From a virus (taxonomy: Duplodnaviria; Caudoviricetes), in the IMG/VR virus record IMGVR_UViG_3300022918_000015, positions 1-52,578 of that record: DNA of 52,578 bases; one strand, written 5' to 3'. The position numbers and the translations under genes were made by a program. This document shows, one piece after another, positions 41,480 to 52,577 of the stretch (the stretch's first letter is position 1; each line of letters starts with the position of its first letter). The notes under the pieces were generated by a model, which made no database searches, was not told the DNA's origin, and saw nothing but the letters and a program-made list of their open reading frames with translations.

Positions 41480-42277
41480 TTATAAATTTCCTAAAAACAT
41501 ATTAATAATAGATTGATGACCATTTCCTAAACTTGTTAATGATTTAACATTGTTAGAAGCATCTTTATACATAATATCTGAATTTGCATAATCCATAGTT
41601 ATATCAGCTATTTCTAAATTAAATCCATCAAATTTATTTATCATTTCATTTAATTTAGGCAATTCTCCTAACTTTAAACTAGGTTGAGATATAATACCTG
41701 AGTCTATTTTGCGAAATAATAATTCCATGTAAATTATATCATATATTCTATACATATCACATAATTTTTTAAGCTCATCTTCAGTGAATTTACTCATATC
41801 ATTAGAAATACCTAAAGCCTTCTTAAACTTTAAGTAAGCAACAATATTTGTAAACAATCTGATATTAGTACTCATAAATTGAGGTTGACCAGTTGGCTGT
41901 AAATTAGAATTATAAGTACTAATACAGTCTATGATATCTCCTTTCAGCATCTTAATTAATAAAGTACTACCACATTCAAATTCAAAATGAATATCTCCTG
42001 TAATATCTTGATTGGTAAAAGTGTTATCTAATATAAACTTAGCCATTTTAATATCATCACGAACTGGTATTTTGTGAACATCTGATATAATAATATTATT
42101 TAATATTGTACTTAATGCCCAAGTTAGTTTTAATATCAAACTTTTTCCTGATCCGTTATGACCAACTAAAATTATGAGACTATTAAAATCCATATCCAGA
42201 TTTTTAAATTGCTCTAACATGCCTGGACCAGTGTTAGATATCTTCATGTGTTTTACATGTCCTAATGTTTTACTCAT
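41480..42277 (-). CDS. AAA_15/AAA_21-like ABC ATPase ending just after the signature motif
   Basis: ILVGHNGSGKS Walker A; C-terminal LTSLGNGHQS signature-like motif; stop 9 aa later; no Walker B. Confidence 0.7.
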   Translation of the reverse strand: MSKTLGHVKHMKISNTGPGMLEQFKNLDMDFNSLIILVGHNGSGKSLILKLTWALSTILNNIIISDVHKIPVRDDIKMAKFILDNTFTNQDITGDIHFEFECGSTLLIKMLKGDIIDCISTYNSNLQPTGQPQFMSTNIRLFTNIVAYLKFKKALGISNDMSKFTEDELKKLCDMYRIYDIIYMELLFRKIDSGIISQPSLKLGELPKLNEMINKFDGFNLEIADITMDYANSDIMYKDASNNVKSLTSLGNGHQSIINMFLGNL

Positions 42278-42290
42278 AATTATTTTATTA

Positions 42291-42354
42291 AAAGTGTTGA
42301 TCTGACCTTTAACCAGATAGTACCACGGCTTAGAGCTGTCGGTAGCAACACTTT
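42291..42354. ncRNA. Three-way-junction structured element, copy 1
   Basis: P1 AAAGTGTTG/CAACACTTT, P2 ATCTG/CAGAT, P3 TACC-ACGGC/GCTGT-C-GGTA; second copy at 44739. Confidence 0.65.
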
Positions 42355-42359
42355 ATTAT

Positions 42360-43172
42360 TTAACTTCTTAATATATCTTCTCTAATTTTCTTAGACAATT
42401 CTAAATGCTTTTCACCAAAATGCTCCCAAGCTAATCCCATAGCTTTTAAATCATAATGAGATATTATAGTGCTAACTTGATCTTCGGGATTTTCATGTCC
42501 TAAAATATAAATACTATCAGCTAAATTAACAGCTAAGTTAATATCATGAGTTGAAAATATAACTGTATTTAAATCATTAGTTTGAGAAATATGTTCAAAG
42601 CTTTCTTTAAGTTTCTCTATATTACCTACATCTAAACCTGAAGCTGGTTCATCAAAAACAATATACTTCTTTGAAGTAAATAATTGTTCTAGAATAGCAG
42701 TTCTTTGACGTTGACCTCCAGATAGCTCATTTGGATATTGATCCTTTTGAGACAGCAATTTCCATTCATTTAAAGCATCTACAATCATAGTATGTTTTTC
42801 TGCATTAGATAATTTTTGTTTTCTTAATGCAAACTTTAAACATTCATAAACAGTCTTATGTCTAAATAAAGTATAAGCTTGATCAACAAATCCAGCATCC
42901 CCTTCTGATATTATTTTACAGCTATTAGCATTATAATCATCAGATACTAATATTTGACCAGAAATTGGCTTAATTAATCCAGCTAAAGCTTTAAATAATG
43001 TACTTTTACCTCTACCTGATCTACCTAATATTGCAATACATTGACCAGTTATTTTATCTGTTCTGGTAATATTCTTTTCCTCAAGACTAATATCTTTCAG
43101 AATAATTTTATTACCATATCCAATATTTACCTTATCAAGATATAATATTGTATTTTCTAATTTATATTCCAT
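42360..43172 (-). CDS. ABC transporter ATP-binding subunit (TauB/SsuB/NitT-like)
   Basis: GRSGRGKST, LSGGQRQR, VFDEP, STHD. Confidence 0.92.
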   Translation of the reverse strand: MEYKLENTILYLDKVNIGYGNKIILKDISLEEKNITRTDKITGQCIAILGRSGRGKSTLFKALAGLIKPISGQILVSDDYNANSCKIISEGDAGFVDQAYTLFRHKTVYECLKFALRKQKLSNAEKHTMIVDALNEWKLLSQKDQYPNELSGGQRQRTAILEQLFTSKKYIVFDEPASGLDVGNIEKLKESFEHISQTNDLNTVIFSTHDINLAVNLADSIYILGHENPEDQVSTIISHYDLKAMGLAWEHFGEKHLELSKKIREDILRS

Positions 43173-43174
43173 AA

Positions 43175-43384
43175 TTAATTAAAATAAGTATATAAATTTC
43201 TACCAAATATTAGCCAAATAATTCCATCAATTAAAAAGAAACCAGTTAGATAATAAAGTACTACAACAAAATACAAAAAACTATAAATTAAAATCATAGT
43301 TATAAAACTTAAACAAAATATTATTCTTTCCTTAAAATTACTTGGCCTACTATCCCAGTAATTACAAAACTCATTTACTGACAT
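43175..43384 (-). CDS. Small membrane protein
   Basis: Hydrophobic 69-aa ORF between permease and ATPase. Confidence 0.6.
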   Translation of the reverse strand: MSVNEFCNYWDSRPSNFKERIIFCLSFITMILIYSFLYFVVVLYYLTGFFLIDGIIWLIFGRNLYTYFN

Positions 43385-43386
43385 AA

Positions 43387-44166
43387 TTAAAAATTTGAAT
43401 ATCTAAAAAACAACCTTCTTAAACTTATTAAACTATAATCTATAGATTTTCCAATCATTAATATTATAATTTGCAAAGCTATTACTTCACCTTGAGAACC
43501 ATTCTTTTGATTGGTACCAATTAAATAACCTAATCCACCACTAGCAGTATTAATTAATTCTATTACTACAAGCATATTAAATATAATAGCAAGGTTTTGT
43601 CTTACAGCTTCAATAACAAAATCAAAACGACCCTTTATCATTACTTCAAGTATTATCTCCCAACGAGAACACCCTATACTTTTAGCATGATTAATTTCAT
43701 TTTCAATCGATTTCTTTGACAGACTCTGCAATAAACTTGTTATTAAAAATAAACTCATAAATATTACTAATACTGTTACCTGTATATTTCTTGCATTATG
43801 AATTATAATACTAATATATAAACTAATACCAACTAATGGCAAAAATCTAAACGTACTAATTAAATCACAAAATGGCTTAATAACAGGTAGAGGACTTAGG
43901 TATACTACTATACAAGAGATTATAACGCTATATAAACTAGCTTGTAAAAATAATAAGATCGAACTGGAAATATGGGTCATTAACCCTAAATTCCAGGCAC
44001 TAACAAAACCATTAAATACTTGCGTAATTGTTGGAAATAAATGTGTAGTGCCTACAAAACTAGAAATTACCCACCATCCCAGAATAAAAGTTAACCACAA
44101 GAGTATAACTAAATTATTCTGAGATTTGGATAACTCCTCAAAAGGTCTAAATAATTTATTTAGCAT
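43387..44166 (-). CDS. ABC transporter permease (TauC/SsuC-like)
   Basis: About 6 TM segments; FLPLVG; EAA-like loop INHAKSIGCSRWEII; GGLGY. Confidence 0.88.
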   Translation of the reverse strand: MLNKLFRPFEELSKSQNNLVILLWLTFILGWWVISSFVGTTHLFPTITQVFNGFVSAWNLGLMTHISSSILLFLQASLYSVIISCIVVYLSPLPVIKPFCDLISTFRFLPLVGISLYISIIIHNARNIQVTVLVIFMSLFLITSLLQSLSKKSIENEINHAKSIGCSRWEIILEVMIKGRFDFVIEAVRQNLAIIFNMLVVIELINTASGGLGYLIGTNQKNGSQGEVIALQIIILMIGKSIDYSLISLRRLFFRYSNF

Positions 44167-44181
44167 TTTTGAGATAACTAA

Positions 44182-44679
44182 TTAAAAACTATAACTAATA
44201 CTAGGAGACAAGTAATTAACTTCATCCCAGTTACTAAAACTAAGACCTATACTCACGTTTTCATGCGTATAACCAATTCCAACTCCAACTTCTGTAAAAT
44301 AATCATCAGATCCAAAATATCCGCCTGCACCTGCAATTAGGCTACCAGTTAAATTTCCCACTAATTTATAATTTGGTGAAATTTTAGCTTCCCAGAAATA
44401 ATTAGTAATCTGATCTTTGTCAAAAACATCAACTAGATTACTTCTTCCAAATACAGCTCCATAAGAGATGTTATTGCAAGTAACACCACCTTCTACTGTG
44501 GCATATGAATTTTCTTGCCAATCTCCTTGAAGATGCATAGATAATCCAAGACTCACATAATGAGTAAGTGTATTTACAGATTTAGTTTCTACAACATCCA
44601 CTTGAGGTTGTTCAATTGTTTGAGCATTCATGCTCATTGCTCCTAAGAACAACATTCCTACGATTAAGAATTTTTTCAT
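44182..44679 (-). CDS. Small outer-membrane beta-barrel-like protein
   Basis: Sec signal peptide (MKKFLIVGMLFLGAMSMNA-Q), alternating amphipathic strands, C-terminal ISYSF. Confidence 0.7.
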   Translation of the reverse strand: MKKFLIVGMLFLGAMSMNAQTIEQPQVDVVETKSVNTLTHYVSLGLSMHLQGDWQENSYATVEGGVTCNNISYGAVFGRSNLVDVFDKDQITNYFWEAKISPNYKLVGNLTGSLIAGAGGYFGSDDYFTEVGVGIGYTHENVSIGLSFSNWDEVNYLSPSISYSF

Positions 44680-44738
44680 TTTTTTTGTTTTGTGTTTTAA
44701 GTGCTATGCACTATTAATATTAAATTTAATTAAAAAAA

Positions 44739-44803
44739 ATAAGATATTGATCTGACTTGTTTAAACAGATAGTACGACTTGCAAGAACGTAGCAATAGCT
44801 TAT
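44739..44803. ncRNA. Three-way-junction structured element, copy 2
   Basis: P1 ATAAG-A-TATTG/CAATA-G-CTTAT, P2 ATCTG/CAGAT, P3 TACG/CGTA; same core as the 42291 copy. Confidence 0.65.
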
Positions 44804-44853
44804 AAAAGTAAAATGGAAGAGATCGAGAGTTTCCAGTATGCTATTTTACTTTT
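44804..44853. ncRNA. Stem-bracketed element adjoining copy 2
   Basis: 11-bp AAAAGTAAAAT/ATTTTACTTTT around a 28-nt core. Confidence 0.4.
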
Positions 44854-44887
44854 TTATTTTAAAAGAGTTAATTGACTTTATCGCTCT

Positions 44888-45163
44888 TTATAATTTATAA
44901 TGTAATTTATTATTGATAAAATAATTATAATTATCTAATAGAAATCTTTTTCTACATTTAACAGTAGTAGCTTTATAATTTCCAAGATACCAATTACCAT
45001 TTTTATCTAGAATAGCTTTGCTTACATGGTTAAAACATAAATTATTATTAAATATATAAAAATCTTTTTCATTAAAATAAGAAGATTCTCTAAATTTAAA
45101 ATTATGTTCTTTATGATGTAAATAATATAATACTAATCCTGTTATAATAATAAATATATACAT
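44888..45163 (-). CDS. Small protein with N-terminal TM
   Basis: 91 aa; TAATG coupling to the OmpA-fusion gene. Confidence 0.55.
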   Translation of the reverse strand: MYIFIIITGLVLYYLHHKEHNFKFRESSYFNEKDFYIFNNNLCFNHVSKAILDKNGNWYLGNYKATTVKCRKRFLLDNYNYFINNKLHYKL

Positions 45164-47001
45164 TATTTTAAAAGAGTTACTTGAACCCTTCTGTTTTTAT
45201 ACCTACCTTCAGCTGTATTATTATTGCCAATAGGTTTTTTATCTCCCAATCCTTCTACAGATTCAACTGCTTGGAATGGTAAACCTTGATTTTGCAAATA
45301 CTCTAGTACAGCGTTAGCTCTAGATTTAGATAAAATTTGATTTTGATCAGGATTACCGGTATTATCAGTATGGCCTTCAATAATGATTTTAGTTCCCTCA
45401 GCTTGAACAATTAAATTGTATAATTCTTTAAGTTGTTTATCGCTTGAATGCAATATCTCCGAACTACCTGAATTAAAATTGATTTGCCAGCTTCCAGATG
45501 CCATTACAGACGTTAACTTTTTAGAATAGTCTACTTGTTTCACTTCACCTGAATTAATACCTGAAATCGCTTGTAATGACGTCAAATCAACTGCTTTATC
45601 ATAAGGAGTAACTTTTTTAACAGCATCACTGAATCCATTTGGATTAAGATCTGTCAAATAATTAGCAACTTGTTCATAAACAGATTTGTATCTATTAATT
45701 CCATCATCACCTAATCCATAATATTGCAAAGCATCTGCATGATTCATAATTCTAGTACCACCAGCAATTTGACCATTACTTAAAGTTTTACCTTTAAACA
45801 TTTCATACCAATATTGAGGAGATTGATAACCGTAAGTTTTAGCAACACATTGTGAAGCTTTAACTCTCCAATCATCATATAACTTCATTTGATTAGCAGC
45901 AGTATAAGTAGCTTTCAAAATATTAACAACCACGTCTGGGTTAGCATCAGACCATTCTTTTAAGACTATTAAAGTTGTAGTCATTTGATTAGGAAAATCT
46001 TTAGTAGAAGATATAGTTACTGCGTGAGGAACTTTATCAAATATCATTTTATCTCCAGGCAACCAAGTACTACATAAATCAATTTTTCTAGATACAGTCT
46101 TACCTGTTGGCTTACCATCTTTAAGTTCTTTCATGTCATAAACCTTTCCATTTAATTGAGATGCAATATAATCATTTGCACATTCAATAATATTTGGATT
46201 ATGAATAAAGTTTACAGCTTCTGGATCATACGTACCGATGTTTGGATTTACTTTAATACCTTTATTAGCAAATATATAATTCAATGCTACAACCCAGTCA
46301 CCGTCTCCTACAGCAGTTACGATAACAGCTCCTTTAAGATTAGCCGGATTATCAATATATTTTTTATCTCCAATAAGTTTATCTTCTCCATAACTAGCTC
46401 CATAACAAGCCTTAACTACAGCGTGATATTTATCTTCACCAAATTTATCGTCAAGCATTTTATTTAATGTTGATATAAAATAAGGAGCGCCATCACCCAT
46501 AATACTTACTCCGAATGCACTAGTATTGCTTTGTGGATTTAAATTCCCTGAATCAAATTCAGCAGTAAAATTAACCATAGCAGCTTGTAATAGACTAAAA
46601 TCATCCTGACGTCCTATATTAAGATTTACACCATATTTTTCCATTAAACTATTTTCAGAAGTTTGAGGACCGCCATTAGCTACAATCATAGTACTATTAC
46701 CATTCCAAGTATACTCAAGTAAATTATACTTAGTTTTACTTTTTACTTTAGTTGATAAACTGTTTCCTGGCAAATCGATTTTATCTGCTTTAGAAGCGTT
46801 ATCAATTACGGTTCCATCAATTTCCAAATCATTACCTGTAGTAGATTTTAGAAAGTTCATTCCGGGGGCAAAAAAGGCTACTGCTAAATAAGCTATAACG
46901 ATAATAGCTATTACACCCAATACTTTAAGTGTATTACGACCTTTGGGAGTTAGGTTATCCCACCAACTTGTTTTTGTTTGATTTTGATTAAAATTTTCCA
47001 T
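45163..47001 (-). CDS. Membrane-anchored substrate-binding-like protein fused to an OmpA-like peptidoglycan-binding domain
   Basis: N-terminal TM; central region resembling TauA/NMT1-type binding proteins; C-terminal INFNSGS...IEGHTDNTG...NQILSKSRA...NRRVQV. Confidence 0.85.
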   Translation of the reverse strand: MENFNQNQTKTSWWDNLTPKGRNTLKVLGVIAIIVIAYLAVAFFAPGMNFLKSTTGNDLEIDGTVIDNASKADKIDLPGNSLSTKVKSKTKYNLLEYTWNGNSTMIVANGGPQTSENSLMEKYGVNLNIGRQDDFSLLQAAMVNFTAEFDSGNLNPQSNTSAFGVSIMGDGAPYFISTLNKMLDDKFGEDKYHAVVKACYGASYGEDKLIGDKKYIDNPANLKGAVIVTAVGDGDWVVALNYIFANKGIKVNPNIGTYDPEAVNFIHNPNIIECANDYIASQLNGKVYDMKELKDGKPTGKTVSRKIDLCSTWLPGDKMIFDKVPHAVTISSTKDFPNQMTTTLIVLKEWSDANPDVVVNILKATYTAANQMKLYDDWRVKASQCVAKTYGYQSPQYWYEMFKGKTLSNGQIAGGTRIMNHADALQYYGLGDDGINRYKSVYEQVANYLTDLNPNGFSDAVKKVTPYDKAVDLTSLQAISGINSGEVKQVDYSKKLTSVMASGSWQINFNSGSSEILHSSDKQLKELYNLIVQAEGTKIIIEGHTDNTGNPDQNQILSKSRANAVLEYLQNQGLPFQAVESVEGLGDKKPIGNNNTAEGRYKNRRVQVTLLK

Positions 47002-47032
47002 TTGTTTTTAATTATAGTTTTTAAATTAATTA

Positions 47033-48154
47033 TTAAAATATTCCTCCAATTCCACCTGTAGCGTCTTTTTCTTCAGCCGTAAGTTTCAAATCAGGATTAT
47101 TAAATCGTTTAGCACTAGGAATAATATCAGTACCAGCTTTAATATTGGCTACTAATTTATCCAATTGATTGAAAGACTTACTAGGGTCACCAATATTGAT
47201 ATTACCCATAGCGTCTTTAATATCTTGTAAGTTGTTTTTAGTTGTAGCAATATTATTTGCAATAGCACCTAACACTACTTCAGAAGCGAATTGAACTTCC
47301 CATTTATCATTAAAGTTTAATACATTTTTAACAGCATCTGTTCCAGCTCTCATTGCGCTAGTAGCTTCAAAATCATTCTTAAGTATCTGAACTGTTGAGT
47401 CAAAATTCTTAACACGATTTTTGAGATAACTAACAAAATATTTATACTGAGTCTCAAACTTAGTAAATACACTAGCTCTGGTTCCGAATTGAGTAATCAG
47501 ATCTTTAGCTTGTTCATAGTTCATTTCAACACGTTGATATTCCATAGCCAAATCATTTCGTTGAATACACAAATCAGCATACTCAGGATCTTCTTTAGAT
47601 TCTTCTGTAGTAAACTTTTCTATTTCTGTATTTAATTTAACAGCTTCTTCAGATATTTCAATTAATCTATCTTGATATTTTTTAGCGTCAAGTTGATTTT
47701 TAGTAGCATTAGATTTCATAGTCTCTTTACTTTGAGATATAATAGTACCAGCTCCAACAGCATCTTCATATTGTTGTACCAATTCTACTCTTTGTTCTCT
47801 AAATGCTCCAAAAGGATCATTAGTTATCCAAAATTCATGAAACTTACGAATCATAGACTTTACAATACCTTTTAATGGTTTTCTACAAGCATAGATTAAT
47901 AGAATGCTACCAACTATTGCCACAACTTGTCCAATTAGATAAAATCCTGCTGCCAATCCAGCTATAAAAGGTAATAAGATAGTCCATACAACATATCCAA
48001 TACCAATTAATCCAAGTATTCGTACTATGTTAAATACAGGTTTTTCACCTTTTTTCCATTCTTGCGGTATTAATTGTATTTCACTACTGTCAATACCGTT
48101 AAACAAAGGTAATCTACTTATCTTTGTTTGTGCGATCTGTTTAAAGTCACTCAT
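47033..48154 (-). CDS. Two-TM protein with long coiled coil (PspA-like architecture)
   Basis: TM hairpin at about aa 40-90, then DPFG and about 250 aa of heptad-rich helix. Confidence 0.65.
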   Translation of the reverse strand: MSDFKQIAQTKISRLPLFNGIDSSEIQLIPQEWKKGEKPVFNIVRILGLIGIGYVVWTILLPFIAGLAAGFYLIGQVVAIVGSILLIYACRKPLKGIVKSMIRKFHEFWITNDPFGAFREQRVELVQQYEDAVGAGTIISQSKETMKSNATKNQLDAKKYQDRLIEISEEAVKLNTEIEKFTTEESKEDPEYADLCIQRNDLAMEYQRVEMNYEQAKDLITQFGTRASVFTKFETQYKYFVSYLKNRVKNFDSTVQILKNDFEATSAMRAGTDAVKNVLNFNDKWEVQFASEVVLGAIANNIATTKNNLQDIKDAMGNINIGDPSKSFNQLDKLVANIKAGTDIIPSAKRFNNPDLKLTAEEKDATGGIGGIF

Positions 48155-48183
48155 TTTAATTATTTGTTATAGTTGTTAATTAA

Positions 48184-48396
48184 TTATTTTTCGTCTTTTT
48201 TATTGTAAAACAATGTATGCATTAATGCTGCAAACATTATCATCAATCCAATCCAACTAAGTATTGTCATAACTACAGTCGTTCTTTTGTCTTGAGGTTC
48301 ATGTGCATCTACGTGGTTTCTAAGTAAAGCACATATTACAAACATTACTGCGCATCCGGTTAAATAACACCAGAATAAATCAAATAAGCTTATCAT
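48184..48396 (-). CDS. Small two-TM protein
   Basis: Hydrophobic 70-aa ORF. Confidence 0.6.
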   Translation of the reverse strand: MISLFDLFWCYLTGCAVMFVICALLRNHVDAHEPQDKRTTVVMTILSWIGLMIMFAALMHTLFYNKKDEK

Positions 48397-48400
48397 ATTT

Positions 48401-49102
48401 TTATAAATTGTTTTTAATATTATTTTGAACTTTGTTTATTTTATCCATTAATTCACTATATGCTATTTGATTGGCTCCTGATTTAAGTTTAATTTCTCTA
48501 ACTTGAGGATCAAATTTCTCATTAATAGTTGTTAATTGTAATTCTGCTTCAGATATTTTTCTTTTTAATTCACTAATAGTAGCAATTAATGAAGATTCTG
48601 TACTAGACCATTGTGACTTAACTTGTTCAAGTTTGTTTTCTCCTTGCTTTTTAAGTTGATTAAAATTATCCATTAAGGTCTTAGCATACTGATTTGCTTG
48701 AGTATCTAATACTTCTTTAGTAAGATTACCAGAAGTCATTGACAAAGCCATTTTAAGAGCTTCTGCTGATTCTAAATTACCAAACTTACTTAGACCTTGA
48801 AATATCTCAAAGAAGTCTACATCGGGCTTATTTAGCTTTGTAAACTGATCATTATAGGCTTTTCTAAGTTGATCTAAATAAGGATTAATTTCATCTTTAA
48901 AACCTTGAGATTCTTGTTTAAAATCAATAGCTGGTTCTGGAAATCCCATTATCTTAGACTCTTCTTTAGATTCGGGATCAAAAAAAGTAGGCGCTGGATT
49001 TCTTGAAGGGAAAGTTGTTTTTGGATTTTCAACAAAAGGTTTATTTTCTTGAGTTGTTTCATCTGGTTTAACAAAACCCATATTTTGTAAAAAACTTTTC
49101 AT
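48401..49102 (-). CDS. Coiled-coil protein, probable first gene of the envelope module
   Basis: Amphipathic N-terminus MKSFLQNMGFV, Pro-rich linker, PDVDFFE motif, coiled-coil C-terminus. Confidence 0.7.
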   Translation of the reverse strand: MKSFLQNMGFVKPDETTQENKPFVENPKTTFPSRNPAPTFFDPESKEESKIMGFPEPAIDFKQESQGFKDEINPYLDQLRKAYNDQFTKLNKPDVDFFEIFQGLSKFGNLESAEALKMALSMTSGNLTKEVLDTQANQYAKTLMDNFNQLKKQGENKLEQVKSQWSSTESSLIATISELKRKISEAELQLTTINEKFDPQVREIKLKSGANQIAYSELMDKINKVQNNIKNNL

Positions 49103-49332
49103 ATAAATAGTCTATTTTTAGGTAACTCATACCCATTTTTTGTTAAATATTCAGTTATATTTTCTTTCCAATTTTCTTTAGGTTTTTCAATAAAACACTT
49201 ATAATCTTCAGACATTAAATCTTTAGCTTCAGCTATTTTCCAGCCCTCACTATGTGTTTGATCAACGAATAAATCAGATATTTCATTTAATTCTTCTCTT
49301 GTTAATTCTGTTAATTTTTTTAATTTATTCAT
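49099..49332 (-). CDS. Hypothetical protein
   Basis: 77-aa tiled ORF. Confidence 0.6.
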   Translation of the reverse strand: MNKLKKLTELTREELNEISDLFVDQTHSEGWKIAEAKDLMSEDYKCFIEKPKENWKENITEYLTKNGYELPKNRLFI

Positions 49333-49631
49333 ATTTTTTCATTTATAATTTTTTCAAATAGATCATCTACATCAATTATTTTAGCCTCAATAGGTAGTTC
49401 TCCTGAAGAATACATACAAGAATTAATTGCTCTATAATATGTTCTATTGCATCCAAATAGTTCTCTCATCATTTCAGGTTTGATTTTGTGATAATCACTA
49501 AGTTCGTTATTCCAAGTAAATCCTAAATAATCTAAAACTTCGCAAAATCTATCTATATTATTATCATTTACTTTAAAGAAATAATAAGGTTGTTTTAAAT
49601 AGTCAATTACTCTTTGTTCAAAATCATTCAT
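49329..49631 (-). CDS. Paralog family C protein
   Basis: LKQPYYFF...FCEVLDYLGFTWNN. Confidence 0.65.
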   Translation of the reverse strand: MNDFEQRVIDYLKQPYYFFKVNDNNIDRFCEVLDYLGFTWNNELSDYHKIKPEMMRELFGCNRTYYRAINSCMYSSGELPIEAKIIDVDDLFEKIINEKI

Positions 49632-49857
49632 ATTGACATCTTCTTATTATTTTTACTTTATTCTTTTCTAAGCAATTTGATGTAGACTCAAATATTGTAT
49701 TATAATCATGACCAGAAACTCTATTTATTGAAATGACTCCATTTAATCTTCTTTGATATATTTTACCAATATCTTCTTTTTGATGCCATTCTACTGTTTC
49801 AAATAAATCCCCATCGTTTACATACTTTAAACTTATTACCTCTTCATTATCATTCAT
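49624..49857 (-). CDS. Small protein, family B-like
   Basis: Start moved to MNDNEEV to avoid the tRNA; VNDGDLFE...VKIIR. Confidence 0.55.
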   Translation of the reverse strand: MNDNEEVISLKYVNDGDLFETVEWHQKEDIGKIYQRRLNGVISINRVSGHDYNTIFESTSNCLEKNKVKIIRRCQYE

Positions 49858-49880
49858 TTTAACTCTAATTTTAGTTATAG

Positions 49881-49963
49881 CTCCCAGGGAGGGATTCGAA
49901 CCCACACACAAGTGATTGTACTACCTTCACAGATAGCTTGTCTACCAATTTCAACACCCGGGA
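49881..49963 (-). tRNA. Atypical class II tRNA (Leu-like body, 6-nt anticodon loop UGUGAA)
   Basis: Acceptor TCCCGGG/CCTGGGA, D arm TTG-AAATTGGTAGA-CAA, anticodon stem CTATC/GGTAG, variable arm TACAA/TTGTG, T loop TTCGAAT. Confidence 0.75.
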
Positions 49964-49976
49964 ATTTTAATTTATT

Positions 49977-50042
49977 TCGTAGAACGCAAAACATACTAAC
50001 TGATCAGGTTTTCAATTTTGCGTTTTTATTACAAAACTACGA
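49977..50042 (-). ncRNA. Candidate three-way-junction RNA between tRNAs
   Basis: TCGTAG/CTACGA enclosing AACGCAAAA/TTTTGCGTT and a short third stem. Confidence 0.4.
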
Positions 50043-50140
50043 CACTTTTTTATTTTGGACACTACTGGTCGAAAAGTATAAACGACCTCACGCATAGTAT
50101 AACTCTACAAGAATCACCAAGCTTTATTATCTAACTGTCG

Positions 50141-50218
50141 TGGACTTAGAGAGACTCGAACTCTCATGTAACCAAATTACGCTTTCTATTGGTTATGAGC
50201 CAAAGGCGATATAAGTCC
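50141..50218 (-). tRNA. D-armless tRNA-like RNA with CAU anticodon (Met or Ile2)
   Basis: Acceptor GGACTTA/TAAGTCC + A; TTGG-CTCATAA-CCAA; T arm GAGAG-TTCGAGT-CTCTC; only 8 nt between acceptor and anticodon stem. Confidence 0.75.
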
Positions 50219-50227
50219 GATAATTAG

Positions 50228-50311
50228 TACCGAGAACCAGATTTGAACTGGCACGAGCTATTAAGCTCACGGAATTTTAAGTCCCGCATGTCTGCATTCC
50301 ATCACCTCGGC
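50228..50311 (-). tRNA. trnL: tRNA-Leu(UAA)
   Basis: GCCGAGG/TCTCGGT + A; CGGGA-CTTAAAA-TTCCG; long variable arm GAGCT/AGCTC; GCCAG-TTCAAAT-CTGGT. Confidence 0.9.
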
Positions 50312-50346
50312 ATTGAGGTGTAAATATAAATATCTACACCAATTTT

Positions 50347-50426
50347 ATTCAGTCGTTTAAAGTACGAGCCTAGCATATCATTGCTTTCTCAATCTGTTTA
50401 ATTCCCTCTTCTTGTGGAACCTGAAT
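50347..50426 (-). ncRNA. Candidate multibranch RNA upstream of the tRNA cluster
   Basis: ATTCAG/CTGAAT closes three hairpins (TCGT/ACGA, AGCA/TGCT, TTCC/GGAA). Confidence 0.35.
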
Positions 50427-50590
50427 TAATTCTTCTTAAATATTCTCTTAACAATAAAGGAATTTAAATCCTTATGTAAATTAGTTAAGTTAAAAAACTT
50501 AGCAATACTATCTTCTTGCTTGTTTTGCTCTTCAATTTTGCCTTTTAAATAATCCTGATAATCTGCTTGATCTTGTGCACTAAATTTCAT
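50426..50590 (-). CDS. 54-aa protein (not in ORF track)
   Basis: MKFSAQDQADYQDYLKGKIEEQNKQEDSIAKFFNLTNLHKDLNSFIVKRIFKKN. Confidence 0.55.
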   Translation of the reverse strand: MKFSAQDQADYQDYLKGKIEEQNKQEDSIAKFFNLTNLHKDLNSFIVKRIFKKN

Positions 50591-50611
50591 AATATTATAT
50601 TTATTTTTTTT

Positions 50612-51190
50612 TTAATTTATAGTTTGATACTCTGCAACTTTTATATACTCAGAATCTTCTTCTGGATTACATTCAGCTTCCCATTCAACATTAGTAATCC
50701 ATTTTGTATTAGGATGTTGATTCATTTCTAAATAACCTAATTCACCTTCTTCAAAAATATTAGGATTACTAGATTCGTATATTTCATCATTATCATCTAA
50801 TACATCCATTTGTTTTTTAGATAACTTTGGAGCATAACACCATCCTCCATCTCCACCAACACAATATAAATGATTATTTAATGGATTTAAATATATTTCA
50901 TTATAATCATGACCATAATAAAATTTAGCTATTTTTTGAAGTTCTATAATATTATTTTTTAAAATAGATAAATCTGCTTTATACAGCTTAGTACTTTTAC
51001 TCCATTTAGAATCTATAGTAAATACACTTATATAATCATTATTTTTATCTTTAAAAACTCTTATTGAACCTTCAATTAAATTAAACTTAGTTACTCTTTT
51101 CCAATCAGAAACATAATATTCTGAATTAATTAAATCAATACAATCTCTTGTAGATAAAACTTTAACTTTTTTGTATATAAAATCATTCAT
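50612..51190 (-). CDS. Hypothetical protein
   Basis: 192-aa ORF. Confidence 0.7.
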   Translation of the reverse strand: MNDFIYKKVKVLSTRDCIDLINSEYYVSDWKRVTKFNLIEGSIRVFKDKNNDYISVFTIDSKWSKSTKLYKADLSILKNNIIELQKIAKFYYGHDYNEIYLNPLNNHLYCVGGDGGWCYAPKLSKKQMDVLDDNDEIYESSNPNIFEEGELGYLEMNQHPNTKWITNVEWEAECNPEEDSEYIKVAEYQTIN

Positions 51191-51195
51191 AAATT

Positions 51196-51492
51196 TTAAT
51201 TATATAATTGTAATTTACATACATATCCAAGGCTATAATTACCTTGATATTGATTAAAAGTAAAATTTATTGATTGTTTTTTGCCTTCAAATTCGCTAAC
51301 TAATTCTCTGTTAGAATCAATCATTTCGTAATTATGACCCACTTTTGATTTTGATTTCACATCTATTGCGTGAGCGTGTAGCTTCAATCTCTCTTCTTGA
51401 TAACCCACAGGATTTAATCTCAAAGTTTCTTTCCAATCACGTTTTGCGTCTTTAATTTCTTTTCTTCTTTTTAATTGTTCTTTAGTTGCCAT
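51196..51492 (-). CDS. Hypothetical protein
   Basis: 98-aa ORF. Confidence 0.7.
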   Translation of the reverse strand: MATKEQLKRRKEIKDAKRDWKETLRLNPVGYQEERLKLHAHAIDVKSKSKVGHNYEMIDSNRELVSEFEGKKQSINFTFNQYQGNYSLGYVCKLQLYN

Positions 51493-51506
51493 AATTATTT
51501 TTTTAT

Positions 51507-52577
51507 TTATTCTTTATAGATTTTTAGAGTATACTTTTCTTCTTTATTGTAAATCTTAATTATATAAATACCTTTTGGTAAGTTAGATAAATCGTGATTA
51601 TTTTTATTTAATTCTTGACCTAATATATTATAAACATTAAATTCATAATCTCTTATATTAGATATAATTAACTGATCATTATATATAAATGCTTTAACTG
51701 TCAAGTTGTTGATAATAACTGTTTGATTTAAATTATTATAACCTGTACTTTCTTCCCAAGTATTTTCATTAGCACATCTAATTGAATAAATAGGATTTGT
51801 AGGTATATCAATATCAGGTAAGTTTAAATATAATCTATAGTTTCCATTAGGTAAATTATTGTTAATAACATGATAAATTAAGCTACCGTTTACAACATCG
51901 CATTGCCAAAAGTTAGGATCTGTATTTAGTAATATGCTAAATTCCTGACCAGTTGCAATATTTTTATAAACAATATAAGCCTTTCTATCATTAACAAGAT
52001 TACCAAATCCTTTATTCTCTAGAGTAATAGAAATAGCATTGTTATTTATATAACTATTAAGTAATACAAATCTATATCCTAATCTATTAATTATCTCGCT
52101 TTTACAGTTATTTACTTGCCAATTATTCCAAACATCAGGATGATAAGACATATTTAAATAATTAAAATGAAATCTTTCCAATGTTAATAAAGCATTACTA
52201 CAATCTGTGCTTGGTGATATTAATCCACATGATTCTCCACCAGCAATAGTAAATCTCGTTTGACTATCTAAATATGAATATTCATTTGTTGTATTAGTAA
52301 ATCCTTCCCAACCTGTTCTTAAGAAACAATCATTATGATAACTCATCCTAGAAGCATTACTATTATTATACGCCTGTTCATTTGTTATAGCATTATTTCC
52401 TGTAATACTTCTCATTATACTTGGAGTTCTAAAAGCTATATTTCTTTTAGGACATAATTCAAATATTTTATTACCAATTTCAATTCTATTAGCTAATTGT
52501 GTAGCAGTTAAATTATCAGTATTGCCATAATTTGAACTATCATACCACTCACCATACTCACCTATAAATCCAGCTTC
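51507..52577 (-). CDS. DUF4832-type glycoside-hydrolase-like protein with T9SS C-terminal sorting domain (5' end outside window)
   Basis: Frame is open to the window edge (EAGFIGEYGEWY...FRTP); HNDCFL, GGE and RLGYRF motifs; CTD-like VYNILGQ...LSNLPKGIYIIKI...TLKIYKE. Confidence 0.8.
   Translation of the reverse strand, partial: EAGFIGEYGEWYDSSNYGNTDNLTATQLANRIEIGNKIFELCPKRNIAFRTPSIMRSITGNNAITNEQAYNNSNASRMSYHNDCFLRTGWEGFTNTTNEYSYLDSQTRFTIAGGESCGLISPSTDCSNALLTLERFHFNYLNMSYHPDVWNNWQVNNCKSEIINRLGYRFVLLNSYINNNAISITLENKGFGNLVNDRKAYIVYKNIATGQEFSILLNTDPNFWQCDVVNGSLIYHVINNNLPNGNYRLYLNLPDIDIPTNPIYSIRCANENTWEESTGYNNLNQTVIINNLTVKAFIYNDQLIISNIRDYEFNVYNILGQELNKNNHDLSNLPKGIYIIKIYNKEEKYTLKIYKE

What the first reader, a model, noticed from the sequence alone, without database searches (positions are those of the whole stretch)
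50141..50218. D-armless CAU tRNA-like RNA with a D-loop-like sequence moved to the variable region
Seen: perfect acceptor and T arms and a canonical CUCAUAA loop, but only UAUCGCCU between acceptor and anticodon stem. The 3' side has AGAAAGCG, which can pair with CGC to extend the anticodon helix, then GUAA-UUUGG-UUAC. The stretch AGCGUAAUUUGGUUA looks like a normal D-arm 5' strand and loop placed after the anticodon arm. Inference: a topologically rearranged tRNA that may rebuild the elbow with the displaced GG, perhaps evading tRNA-targeting defences. Perfect stems argue against decay.
Basis: partly seen in the sequence, partly recalled or inferred. Interest (0 to 1): 0.72.

Follow-up and report, generated by a model that had tools for sequence, protein, structure and literature searches.

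The report
Phage tRNA with rewired D arm
This phage gene encodes a transfer RNA whose D-arm pieces are joined in a different order from the near-universal cloverleaf, and the same unannotated design recurs in many other phages, including cultured ones.

Summary
On the minus strand (50218 to 50141) lies a 78-nt tRNA-like gene. It has a perfect acceptor stem and T arm, a CUCAUAA anticodon loop and no D arm in the usual place. It is not a decayed copy. Relatives also occur in 22 bacterial genome records and, unannotated, in GenBank phages of Streptomyces, Microbacterium and Bacteroides. All four helices covary, including the 3-bp helix that joins the stretch after position 9 to the stretch after the anticodon arm. 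The next strongest covariation matches the R15-Y48 Levitt pair. My reading is that the D/anticodon domain (nucleotides 10-45) is circularly permuted inside the tRNA, so the D stem and a D loop with GG are kept but wired differently. Anticodons are only UAU, CAU, GAU (Ile or Met type) and UCU, CCU, ACG (Arg). Arg-type copies carry A at the displaced position 20, the ArgRS determinant. The window's copy is most likely an AUA-reading tRNA-Ile2; Met is the main rival. There are no expression or charging data. Nine full-text searches found no description.

The parts
50212..50218 (-). Acceptor stem, 5' strand (tRNA positions 1-7)
   Evidence: Pairs 7 of 7 with 50142-50148. In 110 relatives this helix is 97.3% paired and 7 of 7 pairs change on both sides.
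50210..50211 (-). U8 A9 connector
   Evidence: UA here in all 50 loci of the scan, which did not constrain the 5' half. U8 is the canonical partner of A14 (established knowledge).
50206..50209 (-). UCGC, read as D-stem 3' strand (canonical positions 22-25), attached directly to position 9
   Evidence: CGC pairs with GCG at 50180-50182. This helix is 100% paired and all 3 pairs covary in alignment A2. Variants seen include CGG/CCG, CUC/GAG, CAC/GUG, AGG/CCU, CUG/CAG, CCC/GGG and ACC/GGU.
50205..50205 (-). C, read as position 26
   Evidence: C in 109 of 110 aligned relatives, but the pattern allowed only C or A here. In the set, where this position was unconstrained, all rows but one (L055, which has A) carry C. 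The positional assignment is my inference.
50188..50204 (-). Anticodon arm: U.U (27:43), then 4 bp, then the loop CUCAUAA. Anticodon CAU lies at 50195-50197.
   Evidence: The 4-bp stem is 99.8% paired and 4 of 4 pairs covary. All 45 CAU-class members have the loop CUCAUAA.
50183..50187 (-). AGAAA, read as positions 44 and 45 plus an AAA linker that joins old position 45 to old position 10
   Evidence: GAAA was required by every family scan and by the script filters, so its invariance among collected members is forced. The divergent second arrangement, found by covariance model without this requirement, carries other linkers here. The linker role is my inference.
50179..50182 (-). GCGU, read as D-stem 5' strand (canonical positions 10-13), displaced to after the anticodon arm
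   Evidence: GCG covaries with 50206-50208. The U faces U at 50209.
50169..50178 (-). Displaced D loop (A14 R15 Y Y (Y) G18 G19 U20 N A21). The window's copy has one extra U.
   Evidence: Family consensus is A-R-Y-Y-G-G-(U or A)-N-A. The R covaries with the base before the T stem. Position 20 is A in 10 of 10 Arg-type and U in 99 of 100 others.
50166..50168 (-). CAU, read as positions 46-48. The last base is the Levitt partner of R15.
   Evidence: Column 42 with column 54: A-U 82, G-C 15, G-G 9, A-C 3, G-U 1. This is the highest mutual information after the 16 helix pairs that rank above it. The window has A with U.
50149..50165 (-). T arm (5 bp plus a 7-nt loop beginning UUCG)
   Evidence: Fully paired in the window. 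The family helix is 96.5% paired and 4 of 5 pairs covary. Loop positions 54-56 and 58 are nearly invariant.
50141..50148 (-). Acceptor stem 3' strand (66-72) and discriminator A73 (50141). CCA is not encoded; the next base is C.
   Evidence: The discriminator is A in 105 of 110. CCA is encoded in 19 of 124 unique members, and the first trailer base is C in at least 102 of 124.
50227..50311 (-). Neighbouring ordinary tRNA-Leu(UAA), 9 nt upstream on the same strand
   Evidence: ARAGORN. Rfam 42.5 bits.

Best explanation
The element is a working tRNA gene of a widespread, so far unannotated structural class carried mainly by phages. In this class the D/anticodon domain (canonical nucleotides 10-45) is circularly permuted inside the molecule.

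The order of parts is: acceptor 5' strand, U8 A9, the D-stem 3' strand (22-25), position 26, the anticodon arm, positions 44-45 plus an AAA linker, the D-stem 5' strand (10-13), the D loop (14-21, with G18 G19), positions 46-48, the T arm, the acceptor 3' strand, and A73.

All canonical helices can still form, so the RNA should fold into an ordinary L shape although its secondary-structure diagram is not a cloverleaf. The same holds for the main tertiary contacts: D-stem pairs 10-25, 11-24 and 12-23, U8-A14, R15-Y48, and G18G19 with the T loop.

The window's copy has anticodon CAU, A73 and C4-G69. It most likely becomes tRNA-Ile2 after lysidine formation by the host's TilS and reads AUA. AUA is very common in this AT-rich phage, which probably infects a member of Bacteroidota.

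Shown here: the sequence anatomy, the family, the covariation, the restriction of anticodons, and the way anticodon sets complement each other. Inferred: the 3D fold, processing, modification, charging and decoding.
For: (1) Family size.
- A relaxed script filter counts 167 copies, 124 distinct, in 161 loci. Of the 124, 110 are exactly 77 nt.

(2) Structure.
- In 110 distinct sequences, 97.6% of cells pair, against 63.4% in shuffles.
- 19 of 20 pairs change on both sides, and sliding the 3' partners drops pairing to 35-44%.
- The rival minimum-energy fold has no compensatory change in its two private helices.

(3) Tertiary signal. After the 16 helix pairs that rank highest, the strongest mutual information is the Levitt-pair analogue.

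(4) Identity elements.
- C35 goes with A at the displaced position 20 in 10 of 10 Arg-type members. Ile/CAU types have U20 in 99 of 100.
- Table 1 of Giege & Eriani 2023 lists A20, C35 and A/G73 for bacterial Arg, and A73, C4-G69 and U20 for bacterial Ile (passages read).

(5) Anticodons. The 124 distinct members carry UAU 54, CAU 45, GAU 14, UCU 5, CCU 5 and ACG 1. The discriminator is A in 105 of 110.

(6) Complementarity, in 44 deduplicated loci with at least 8 ordinary tRNAs.
- A rewired GAU coexists with an ordinary GAU tRNA in 1 of 13 loci. An ordinary GAU tRNA is present in 24 of 31 loci without a rewired one (Fisher p = 2.5e-5).
- Rewired UAU, UCU and CCU coexist with an ordinary tRNA of the same anticodon in 0 of 8, 0 of 2 and 0 of 3 loci.

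(7) A covariance model separates members from other tRNAs.
- Members score 69.8-98.4 bits: 100 hits and 75.
- Apart from one copy cut off by its locus end (L007, 53.1 bits), every other hit scores 49.3 bits or less.
- Four GenBank copies that were not in the training set score 80.9-89.2 bits.

(8) Ile2 rather than Met.
- The CAU class has C4-G69 in 36 of 45 and U4-A69 in 2 of 45. The UAU class has C4-G69 in 35 of 45. The window has C4-G69.
- In the 15 loci listed with a window-type rewired CAU, the ordinary CAU tRNAs are mostly of a type with a weak or mismatched 1:72 pair. An ordinary C4-G69 type appears in L075 plus one doubtful parse in L063.

(9) Demand. In the window's ORFs, AUA is 39.8 per 1000 codons and AUG 20.9. 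The neighbouring tRNA-Leu(UAA) serves UUA, the commonest Leu codon at 54.9 per 1000.
Against: - There is no evidence of transcription, end maturation, modification or aminoacylation. No RNA run holds the region.
- The collecting patterns fixed some positions (parts of UAU, GAAA, UA-R, GG, ACA), so invariance at those positions is partly forced. Only the stems, the Levitt columns, position 20 and the positions left free in individual scans are informative.
- Loci are parts of contigs and are related to one another. The Fisher test and the shuffle controls therefore overstate independence.
- Redundant cases exist. Locus L168 and Streptomyces phage Yaboi carry both a rewired GAU copy and an ordinary GAU tRNA.
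- The anticodon stem has only 4 standard pairs plus a U.U.
- Some GAU members have acceptor mismatches: Kehishuvirus has two U.U, and L182 pairs only 4 of 7.
- Ile2 against Met rests on E. coli-derived determinants, which are not universal.
- One CAU subtype (acceptor beginning CCCGACA, with G4-C69 and A5-U68) may be Met. One contig (L010) holds both subtypes.
- The L-shaped fold was not modelled.
Confidence: 0.66

Rival explanations
1. Same permuted tRNA, but the window's CAU copy is an elongator tRNA-Met that reads AUG. C34 stays unmodified by TilS and MetRS charges the RNA.
For: MetRS recognises chiefly CAU and A73 (Table 1 read), and both are present. In 9 of 21 deduplicated loci with a rewired CAU, no ordinary CAU tRNA was found in the fetched stretch, so the rewired gene could be the phage's Met tRNA there. 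One contig carries two different rewired CAU genes (L010), so at least one subtype may be Met.
Against: The bacterial Met determinants U4-A69 and A5-U68 are absent. The window has C4-G69 and U5-A68, and the CAU class has U4-A69 in 2 of 45. The same scaffold otherwise carries only Ile and Arg anticodons. Some CAU and UAU members share acceptor and stem sequences, for example the acceptor GGACUUG in L005 and L212 (CAU) and in L221 (UAU). AUA is twice as frequent as AUG in the phage.
Confidence: 0.2
2. A tRNA mimic that is not used in decoding. It could be a decoy or sponge for a host tRNA-targeting nuclease or a modification enzyme, or a processing signal within tRNA clusters.
For: Phage tRNA clusters are known to hold other stable RNAs (recalled, not checked here). 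The architecture is missed by standard finders. Some members have imperfect acceptor stems. In one Cytophagales genome the gene lies about 0.75 kb from an RtcB RNA-ligase gene.
Against: A decoy would not need a rewired GAU to stand in for a missing ordinary GAU tRNA (1 of 13 against 24 of 31). It would not need C35 coupled to A20, A73 in 105 of 110, a covarying 7-bp acceptor and 5-bp T stem, or a canonical 7-nt anticodon loop. No Rfam family other than tRNA matches.
Confidence: 0.1
3. A decaying tRNA pseudogene, or a chance tRNA-like fold peculiar to this window.
For: The Rfam score is low (33.7 bits), and three of five relatives checked fall below the gathering score at 25.1, 24.8 and 22.1 bits. 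ARAGORN is silent.
Against: There are 124 distinct sequences of nearly fixed length with compensatory changes in every helix. They occur in phages of Bacteroidota and Actinomycetota hosts and in marine contigs. The family pattern matched in 0 of 100 shuffles.
Confidence: 0.02

Closest known systems
Canonical bacterial and phage tRNA-Ile2 (anticodon CAU, lysidine-34), and tRNA-Ile(UAU/GAU) and tRNA-Arg(UCU/CCU)
   Same: Shares the 7-bp acceptor stem, the 5-bp T stem with a standard T loop, the 7-nt anticodon loop and A73. Also shares C4-G69 and U20 (Ile) or A20 plus C35 (Arg), the G18G19 motif and R15-Y48 covariation. Lies within phage tRNA clusters.
   Different: The strand order of the D arm differs. 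The 5' strand of the D stem and the D loop lie after the anticodon arm, inside what would be the variable loop. There is no hairpin D arm. An AAA linker is added. The anticodon stem has 4 bp plus U.U.
Mitochondrial D-armless tRNAs (mammalian mt-tRNA-Ser(AGY), nematode mt-tRNAs) and the synthetic D-armless 'mini HisT'
   Same: There is no D hairpin between the acceptor and anticodon stems, only a short connector. Mini HisT shows that E. coli EF-Tu, the ribosome and HisRS can accept a tRNA without a D arm (PMC11551756, passages read).
   Different: Those RNAs have lost the D stem and the GG-to-T-loop contact and adopt a Y or boomerang shape (PMC7609411 and PMC11551756, passages read). Here the D-stem pairs, the GG motif and the Levitt pair are kept, and the RNA has full length (77 nt). 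The 2024 paper states that natural armless tRNAs exist exclusively in mitochondria.
Circularly permuted tRNA genes of Cyanidioschyzon merolae, and split or permuted archaeal tRNAs
   Same: Both involve permutation of tRNA segments at the gene level.
   Different: In those genes the 3' half precedes the 5' half, and processing through a circular intermediate restores an ordinary mature tRNA (recalled; only the title and abstract of PMC3218864 were seen). Here the acceptor ends sit at the gene's ends and the permutation is internal, so it must persist in the mature RNA.
Allo-tRNAs and (8/4) tRNA-Ser and tRNA-His of bacteria and phages (Mukai et al. 2017, PMC5389517)
   Same: These are non-canonical tRNA designs found by metagenome mining, partly in phage tRNA clusters.
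   Different: Those change the lengths of the acceptor and T stems (8/4 or 9/3) and keep the cloverleaf connectivity (passages read). Here the stems are 7/5 and the connectivity is changed.
Bacterial Y RNA (YrlA) tRNA-like domain
   Same: It is a tRNA-like module with D-loop and T-loop contacts in a non-tRNA topology, and is also found in some phages (PMC4201824, title and abstract seen).
   Different: YrlA has no anticodon loop or free acceptor end and carries a Ro-binding stem (recalled). No Rfam family other than tRNA matched here.

Membership tests
tRNA, canonical cloverleaf (Rfam RF00005) | 7-bp acceptor stem with an unpaired discriminator | tested here: met
   7 of 7 pairs and A73 in the window. 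In the family, 95 of 124 have 7 of 7 pairs, 27 have 6 and 2 have 5. All 7 pairs covary.
tRNA, canonical cloverleaf (Rfam RF00005) | T arm: 5-bp stem and 7-nt loop with U54 U55 C56 and A58 | tested here: met
   The loop columns are nearly invariant.
tRNA, canonical cloverleaf (Rfam RF00005) | Anticodon arm: 5-bp stem and 7-nt loop with U33 and a purine at 37 | tested here: inconclusive
   The loop is canonical (CUCAUAA). The stem has 4 covarying pairs plus a U.U at 27:43. Several scans required those two U's. Position 27 was U in every member of the two scans that left it free.
tRNA, canonical cloverleaf (Rfam RF00005) | D arm as a hairpin between position 9 and position 26 | tested here: not met
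   Only 5 nt lie between U8 A9 and position 27. Rfam deletes 15 model positions there.
tRNA, canonical cloverleaf (Rfam RF00005) | Score at or above Rfam's gathering score (29 bits) | tested here: met
   The window scores 33.7 bits. Of five relatives checked, two pass (29.3 and 33.7) and three fail (25.1, 24.8 and 22.1).
tRNA, canonical cloverleaf (Rfam RF00005) | Elbow contacts: G18 G19 in the D loop, the R15-Y48 pair, U8-A14 | tested here: met
   These are present in a displaced segment. GG and the flanking A's are conserved (partly forced by the patterns). The analogue of the 15-48 pair covaries: A-U 82, G-C 15. Physical contact was not tested.
tRNA-Ile2 (CAU read as AUA after lysidine) | Anticodon CAU with A37 and A38, A73, C4-G69 and U20 (bacterial Ile set, Table 1 of PMC9976931) | tested here: met
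   All are present in the window's copy (table read). The CAU class has C4-G69 in 36 of 45, A73 in 45 of 45 and U20 in 44 of 45.
tRNA-Ile2 (CAU read as AUA after lysidine) | Lysidine at C34 made by TilS, and charging by IleRS | not testable with these tools
   The host is unknown and no RNA data exist.
Elongator tRNA-Met | CAU, A73, and U4-A69 with A5-U68 (bacterial Met set, Table 1 of PMC9976931) | tested here: not met
   CAU and A73 are present, but the window has C4-G69 and U5-A68. U4-A69 occurs in 2 of 45 CAU members.
Bacterial initiator tRNA | Mismatched 1:72 and three G-C pairs at the bottom of the anticodon stem (recalled definition) | tested here: not met
   The window has G1-C72, and its anticodon stem pairs are U-A, U-A, G-C, G-C.
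Mitochondrial-type D-armless tRNA | Loss of the D stem and of the D-loop to T-loop contact | tested here: not met
   A covarying 3-bp D-stem equivalent, the GG motif and a Levitt-pair analogue are present.
Permuted tRNA gene (Cyanidioschyzon type) | 3' half encoded upstream of the 5' half, with the mature ends in the middle of the gene (recalled definition) | tested here: not met
   The acceptor strands lie at the two ends of the gene.

The most novel reading that the evidence does not exclude
Bacterial cytosolic translation routinely uses a second, non-cloverleaf tRNA connectivity. This would be an internally circularly permuted tRNA, supplied by phages of at least Bacteroidota and Actinomycetota hosts for Ile and Arg (and perhaps Met) codons. 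It has been invisible to standard tRNA finders and is therefore missing from curated phage genomes. A more divergent second version of the same rewiring also exists, again only for Ile and Arg. The design may persist because it escapes enzymes that recognise the ordinary D arm or variable loop, such as host tRNA nucleases or a phage's own host-tRNA shut-off. That last step is pure conjecture.
Probability: 0.65. Interest if true: 0.9.

Novelty: new variant of a known kind. Interest (0 to 1): 0.85.

Why it matters
Outside mitochondria, the cloverleaf is treated as the universal tRNA connectivity. [quoted passage not shown]

A natural, widespread, length-conserved tRNA with a permuted core would have several consequences.
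- It would show that the L shape, not the cloverleaf wiring, is what the translation apparatus requires.
- It would reveal a blind spot of tRNA finders. Copies sit unannotated in 38 of the 39 GenBank records listed (RefSeq/GenBank duplicates of the same phage included), in cr130_1 and in Microbacterium phage Zooman. Counts of phage tRNAs and codon-supply analyses are affected.
- It would give a natural experiment on which synthetases and modification enzymes tolerate altered core topology; here only Ile and Arg, and possibly Met, are seen.
- It would offer a new scaffold for engineered tRNAs.

Cultured phage-host pairs that carry it (Streptomyces phages such as Yaboi; Kehishuvirus on Bacteroides cellulosilyticus) make the question directly testable.

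Tried and rejected
1. Minimum-free-energy fold of the window's copy: a GCC/GGC mini-hairpin plus a 7-bp helix UAACCAA/UUGGUUA. Rejected, because its two private helices are paired in only 60.0% and 77.9% of cells and have no compensatory change in 15 relatives.

2. It has no pair with changes on both sides, one pair is unpaired in 46 of 110, and when the G changes it follows its partner in the 3-bp helix, not this one.

3. blastn of the 601-nt region against GenBank phages found nothing. The 78-nt element alone found one record. Other family members as queries found the cultured phages.

4. Exact 20-mer and anticodon-freed exact-stem patterns found only L004.

5. Promoter and terminator scan: 7 promoter-like sites against 7.9 expected and 0 terminators. 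Uninformative.

6. Expression: no RNA holder listed for the region, only two DNA runs.

8. Phage typing: PHROGs gave hits for 3 of 10 proteins, none diagnostic. Pfam gave a phage-like replication module and some host-like genes.

9. Literature: nine full-text searches and passages of five papers gave no description of this architecture. The library lacks most subscription journals and supplements were closed, so an earlier description cannot be excluded.

10. Classifying ordinary CAU tRNAs as initiator, Met or Ile2 by simple acceptor rules is heuristic. The first attempt was off by one base at the 3' end and was redone.
Full report
**The observation**

The window is a linear IMG/VR virus record of 52,578 bases, estimated 37% complete, with 25-30% G+C. 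On the minus strand, from 50218 down to 50141, lies a 78-nt tRNA-like gene. Its features are:
- a perfect 7-bp acceptor stem and discriminator A;
- a perfect 5-bp T stem with a standard 7-nt T loop;
- a 7-nt anticodon loop CUCAUAA on a 4-bp stem.

Between the acceptor stem and that anticodon stem there are only 8 nt. Between the anticodon stem and the T stem there are 23 nt.

Rfam's tRNA model matches exactly these coordinates at 33.7 bits (gathering score 29). It does so by deleting the D arm and inserting 19 nt in the variable region. ARAGORN does not report the element. An ordinary tRNA-Leu(UAA) lies 9 nt upstream, and another odd tRNA lies 177 nt downstream, on the same strand.

**It is a family, not a wreck**

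An exact 20-mer from the core found one other viral contig (L004). There the 33-nt core is identical, while the acceptor and T stems are entirely different yet still paired.

I then freed the stems, then the 5' half, then the anticodon. These patterns found 15, 50 and 26 viral loci. A relaxed script filter, which requires the two inner helices and at least 5 of 7 acceptor pairs, counts 167 copies. Of these, 124 are distinct, spread over 161 loci, and 110 of the 124 are exactly 77 nt.

The same general pattern found 22 stretches among the 185,579 species-representative prokaryote genomes. Most are in Bacteroidota records, and most of those lie inside tRNA arrays.

In GenBank phages, blastn with family members found copies in 39 records. 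These are 38 Streptomyces phage records (RefSeq/GenBank duplicates included) and Kehishuvirus 'tikkala' of Bacteroides cellulosilyticus. Further copies are in crAss-like phage cr130_1 and Microbacterium phage Zooman. No feature is annotated under the match in 38 of the 39 records. In the 39th, a partial match overlaps a CDS.
- In Kehishuvirus the element fills the 90-nt gap between the annotated tRNA-Trp and tRNA-Met.
- In phage Yaboi a GAU copy and a CCU copy lie in unannotated intergenic gaps.

**Secondary structure**

On 110 distinct sequences (alignment A2), the proposed structure has four helices: acceptor, a 3-bp helix, the anticodon stem and the T stem. It pairs in 97.6% of cells, against 63.4% in column shuffles. 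Changes on both sides occur in 19 of 20 pairs. Sliding the 3' partners by 1-3 columns gives 35-44% pairing.

The critical 3-bp helix joins the three bases after U8-A9-U to the three bases after GAAA. It is paired in 100% of cells and all three pairs covary. Variants seen are CGC/GCG, CGG/CCG, CUC/GAG, CUC/GGG, CAC/GUG, AGG/CCU, CUG/CAG, CCC/GGG and ACC/GGU.

Two alternative structures fail:
- The minimum-energy fold of the window's copy has no compensatory change in its private helices.

A covariance model built from A2 scores members at 69.8-98.4 bits, with 100 hits and 75. One further copy, cut off by the end of its locus (L007), scores 53.1 bits. All other hits score 49.3 bits or less. Four GenBank copies that were not used for training score 80.9-89.2 bits.

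**Tertiary signals and the wiring model**

After the 16 helix pairs that rank highest, the strongest mutual information in the alignment links two positions. One is the purine that follows the conserved UA after the 3-bp helix. The other is the base just before the T stem. The pairings are A-U 82, G-C 15, G-G 9, A-C 3 and G-U 1. This is the pattern of the R15-Y48 Levitt pair.

The segment in between reads A-R-Y-Y-G-G-(U/A)-N-A, which is the consensus of a D loop from A14 to A21. That consensus is established knowledge. The GG, and the ACA that follows the loop (its first A being A21), were partly fixed by my patterns.

Putting this on canonical numbering gives my inference (note written). The order of parts is:

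1-7 | U8 A9 | 22-25 | 26 | 27-43 | 44, 45 + AAA | 10-13 | 14-21 | 46-48 | T arm | 66-72 | A73

In other words, the D/anticodon domain (10-45) is circularly permuted. Its old ends, 45 and 10, touch in ordinary tRNAs through the 45-(10-25) base triple; here three A's join them. New ends are opened between 21 and 22 and attached to positions 9 and 46, which also lie next to them in ordinary tRNAs.

The following are all kept:
- D-stem pairs 10-25, 11-24 and 12-23, and a U.U at 13-22;
- U8 with A14;
- G45 with G10-C25;
- G18 G19 facing U55 C56;
- the 15-48 pair.

The molecule is 3 nt longer than a standard tRNA, which is the length of the linker. This explains the fixed length of 77 nt. The RNA is therefore not D-armless. 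It has a D stem and a D loop but no D hairpin. The L-shaped fold was not modelled or probed.

**What it decodes**

The 124 distinct members carry only six anticodons: UAU 54, CAU 45, GAU 14, UCU 5, CCU 5 and ACG 1. These stand for Ile (or Met for CAU) and Arg.

All 10 aligned Arg-type members have A right after the GG (position 20). Of the other 100, 99 have U there. The discriminator is A in all 100 CAU, UAU and GAU members, and A, G, C or U in the Arg types. Table 1 of Giege & Eriani 2023 (passages read) lists A20, C35, U/G36 and A/G73 as the bacterial Arg set. It lists A73, C4-G69, U20 and the anticodon loop as part of the Ile set. That the displaced segment carries the position-20 determinant appropriate to the anticodon is independent support for reading it as a working D loop.

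Anticodon sets also complement each other. This was tested in 44 deduplicated loci with at least 8 ARAGORN tRNAs.
- A rewired GAU gene coexists with an ordinary GAU tRNA in 1 of 13 loci. An ordinary GAU tRNA is present in 24 of the 31 loci without a rewired one (Fisher p = 2.5e-5).
- Rewired UAU, UCU and CCU never coexist with an ordinary tRNA of the same anticodon (0 of 8, 0 of 2 and 0 of 3; these are not significant singly).

There are caveats. Loci are contig fragments and are related to each other. L168 and phage Yaboi have both kinds of GAU tRNA.

**The window's copy: Ile2 or Met**

The anticodon CAU fits elongator Met, initiator or Ile2. Initiator features are absent, because the window has G1-C72 and lacks the three G-C pairs.

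Several points favour Ile2.
- The window has C4-G69 and U5-A68.
- In the CAU class, C4-G69 occurs in 36 of 45 and the Met-type U4-A69 in 2 of 45. The UAU class likewise has C4-G69 in 35 of 45.
- Some CAU and UAU members share acceptor sequences.
- In the 15 loci listed with a window-type rewired CAU, the ordinary CAU tRNAs are mostly of a type with a weak or mismatched 1:72 pair. An ordinary C4-G69 type appears only in L075 and one doubtful parse (heuristic).

A distinct CAU subtype (acceptor beginning CCCGACA, with G4-C69 and A5-U68) may be Met. It coexists with ordinary C4-G69 CAU tRNAs in L080 and L086, and with the other rewired subtype in L010.

Codon usage fits Ile2. In the window's ORFs, AUA is used at 39.8 per 1000 codons (46% of Ile codons) and AUG at 20.9. 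The neighbouring tRNA-Leu(UAA) serves the commonest Leu codon, UUA, at 54.9 per 1000.

I put Ile2 at roughly two to one or better over Met for this copy.

**Context**

The window carries a phage-like replication module: an ATP-dependent DNA ligase, a primase zinc ribbon, a DnaB-like helicase, AAA_24 and a metallophosphatase. Near the tRNAs there are some host-like genes:
- ABC-transporter ATPase and permease domains;
- an OmpA-domain protein;
- a DUF4832 protein whose C-terminus matches the type-IX secretion sorting domain just below cut-off, at 26.6 against 27 bits.

The last suggests a Bacteroidota host. This is an inference.

No RNA run holds the region, so expression is untested.

**Novelty**

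Nine full-text searches and targeted reading found no description of this architecture.
- A 2020 review of non-canonical natural tRNAs has no occurrence of the words 'phage' or 'virus'.

The library omits most subscription journals, and supplements were closed. Prior description cannot be excluded.

I rate this a new variant of a known kind: a tRNA with a new connectivity. It is of high interest because it is widespread, conserved, unannotated even in curated genomes, and testable in cultured phage-host pairs.

Noticed in passing
window 49881-49963 (-): A second odd tRNA. It has an ordinary D arm, a long variable-arm hairpin, U1-A72, discriminator G, and an anticodon loop that is either 8 nt (ARAGORN: four-base anticodon GUGA) or 6 nt, depending on one C-G pair. 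Rfam scores it 33.2 bits. It may be a His- or Ser-like tRNA with an abnormal loop.
   Followed up: partly
L014 4361-4438, L063 310-387, L084 3144-3223 and 2248-2327, L100 9907-9987, L079 2084-2163 and 537-613, L010 4872-4949 and 5086-5165, and others listed: A second, more divergent rewired arrangement of 77-90 nt, scoring 29-49 bits with my model. It has the same topology: a short helix joins the stretch after U8-A9 to the stretch after the anticodon arm, and a GG loop follows. The linkers differ and the tail before the T stem is longer. By eye, 20 of 20 inspected carry Ile (GAU 6, UAU 4) or Arg (UCU 6, UCG 3, ACG 1) anticodons. Of the Arg types, 9 of 10 have A after GG. Of the Ile types, 10 of 10 have U.
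   Followed up: partly
G004 regions L049-L054 (360-kb phage) and L040 (G002): Many tRNAs for class-I-type amino acids (Met, Thr, Gly, Lys, Gln, Asp, Val, Cys, Asn, His, Trp, Glu) are 83-97 nt long. Those I folded show a variable-arm hairpin. In G004 many sit beside normal-length copies of the same anticodon.
   Followed up: partly
L004 about 2156-2200 (-) and L204 about 2449-2494 (+): Directly upstream of the rewired gene in two unrelated phages lies what looks like the 5' half of an ordinary tRNA (acceptor strand plus D arm) that then degenerates. These may be remnants of the duplication or rearrangement that created the permuted gene, or chance. Seen by eye only.
   Followed up: no
L004 101-344 and 4425-4795: The related 103-kb phage contig carries a group I intron (75.6 bits) and a tmRNA (50.2 bits) beside its tRNA array.
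   Followed up: no
L205, L207, L208, L211, L213, L214, L216, L218, L225; L229-L233: Several Cytophagales genomes (Chryseolinea, Chryseosolibacter, Flammeovirgaceae, Cyclobacteriaceae) carry a nearly identical rewired tRNA(UAU), some on megabase contigs. The five genomes searched each have exactly one copy and a full-length TilS-type gene, so the rewired tRNA is an extra AUA decoder there. In one genome it lies about 0.75 kb from an RtcB RNA-ligase gene.
   Followed up: partly
family-wide, first base after the discriminator: CCA is encoded in only 19 of 124 distinct members, yet the first trailer base is C in at least 102 of 124, the window included. This suggests selection on position 74.
   Followed up: no
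window 41480-52415 (-): Host-like genes sit inside the viral record: two ABC-type ATPases, a transporter permease domain, a 612-aa OmpA-domain protein, and a DUF4832 protein with a type-IX secretion sorting tail just under Pfam's cut-off. This hints at a Bacteroidota host.
   Followed up: partly
L227 2470-2991 (Streptomyces phage Yaboi gene 110): The rewired GAU tRNA of Yaboi lies 9 nt downstream of a gene annotated as a nucleotidyltransferase-domain protein. Whether this is a CCA-adding enzyme was not examined.
   Followed up: no
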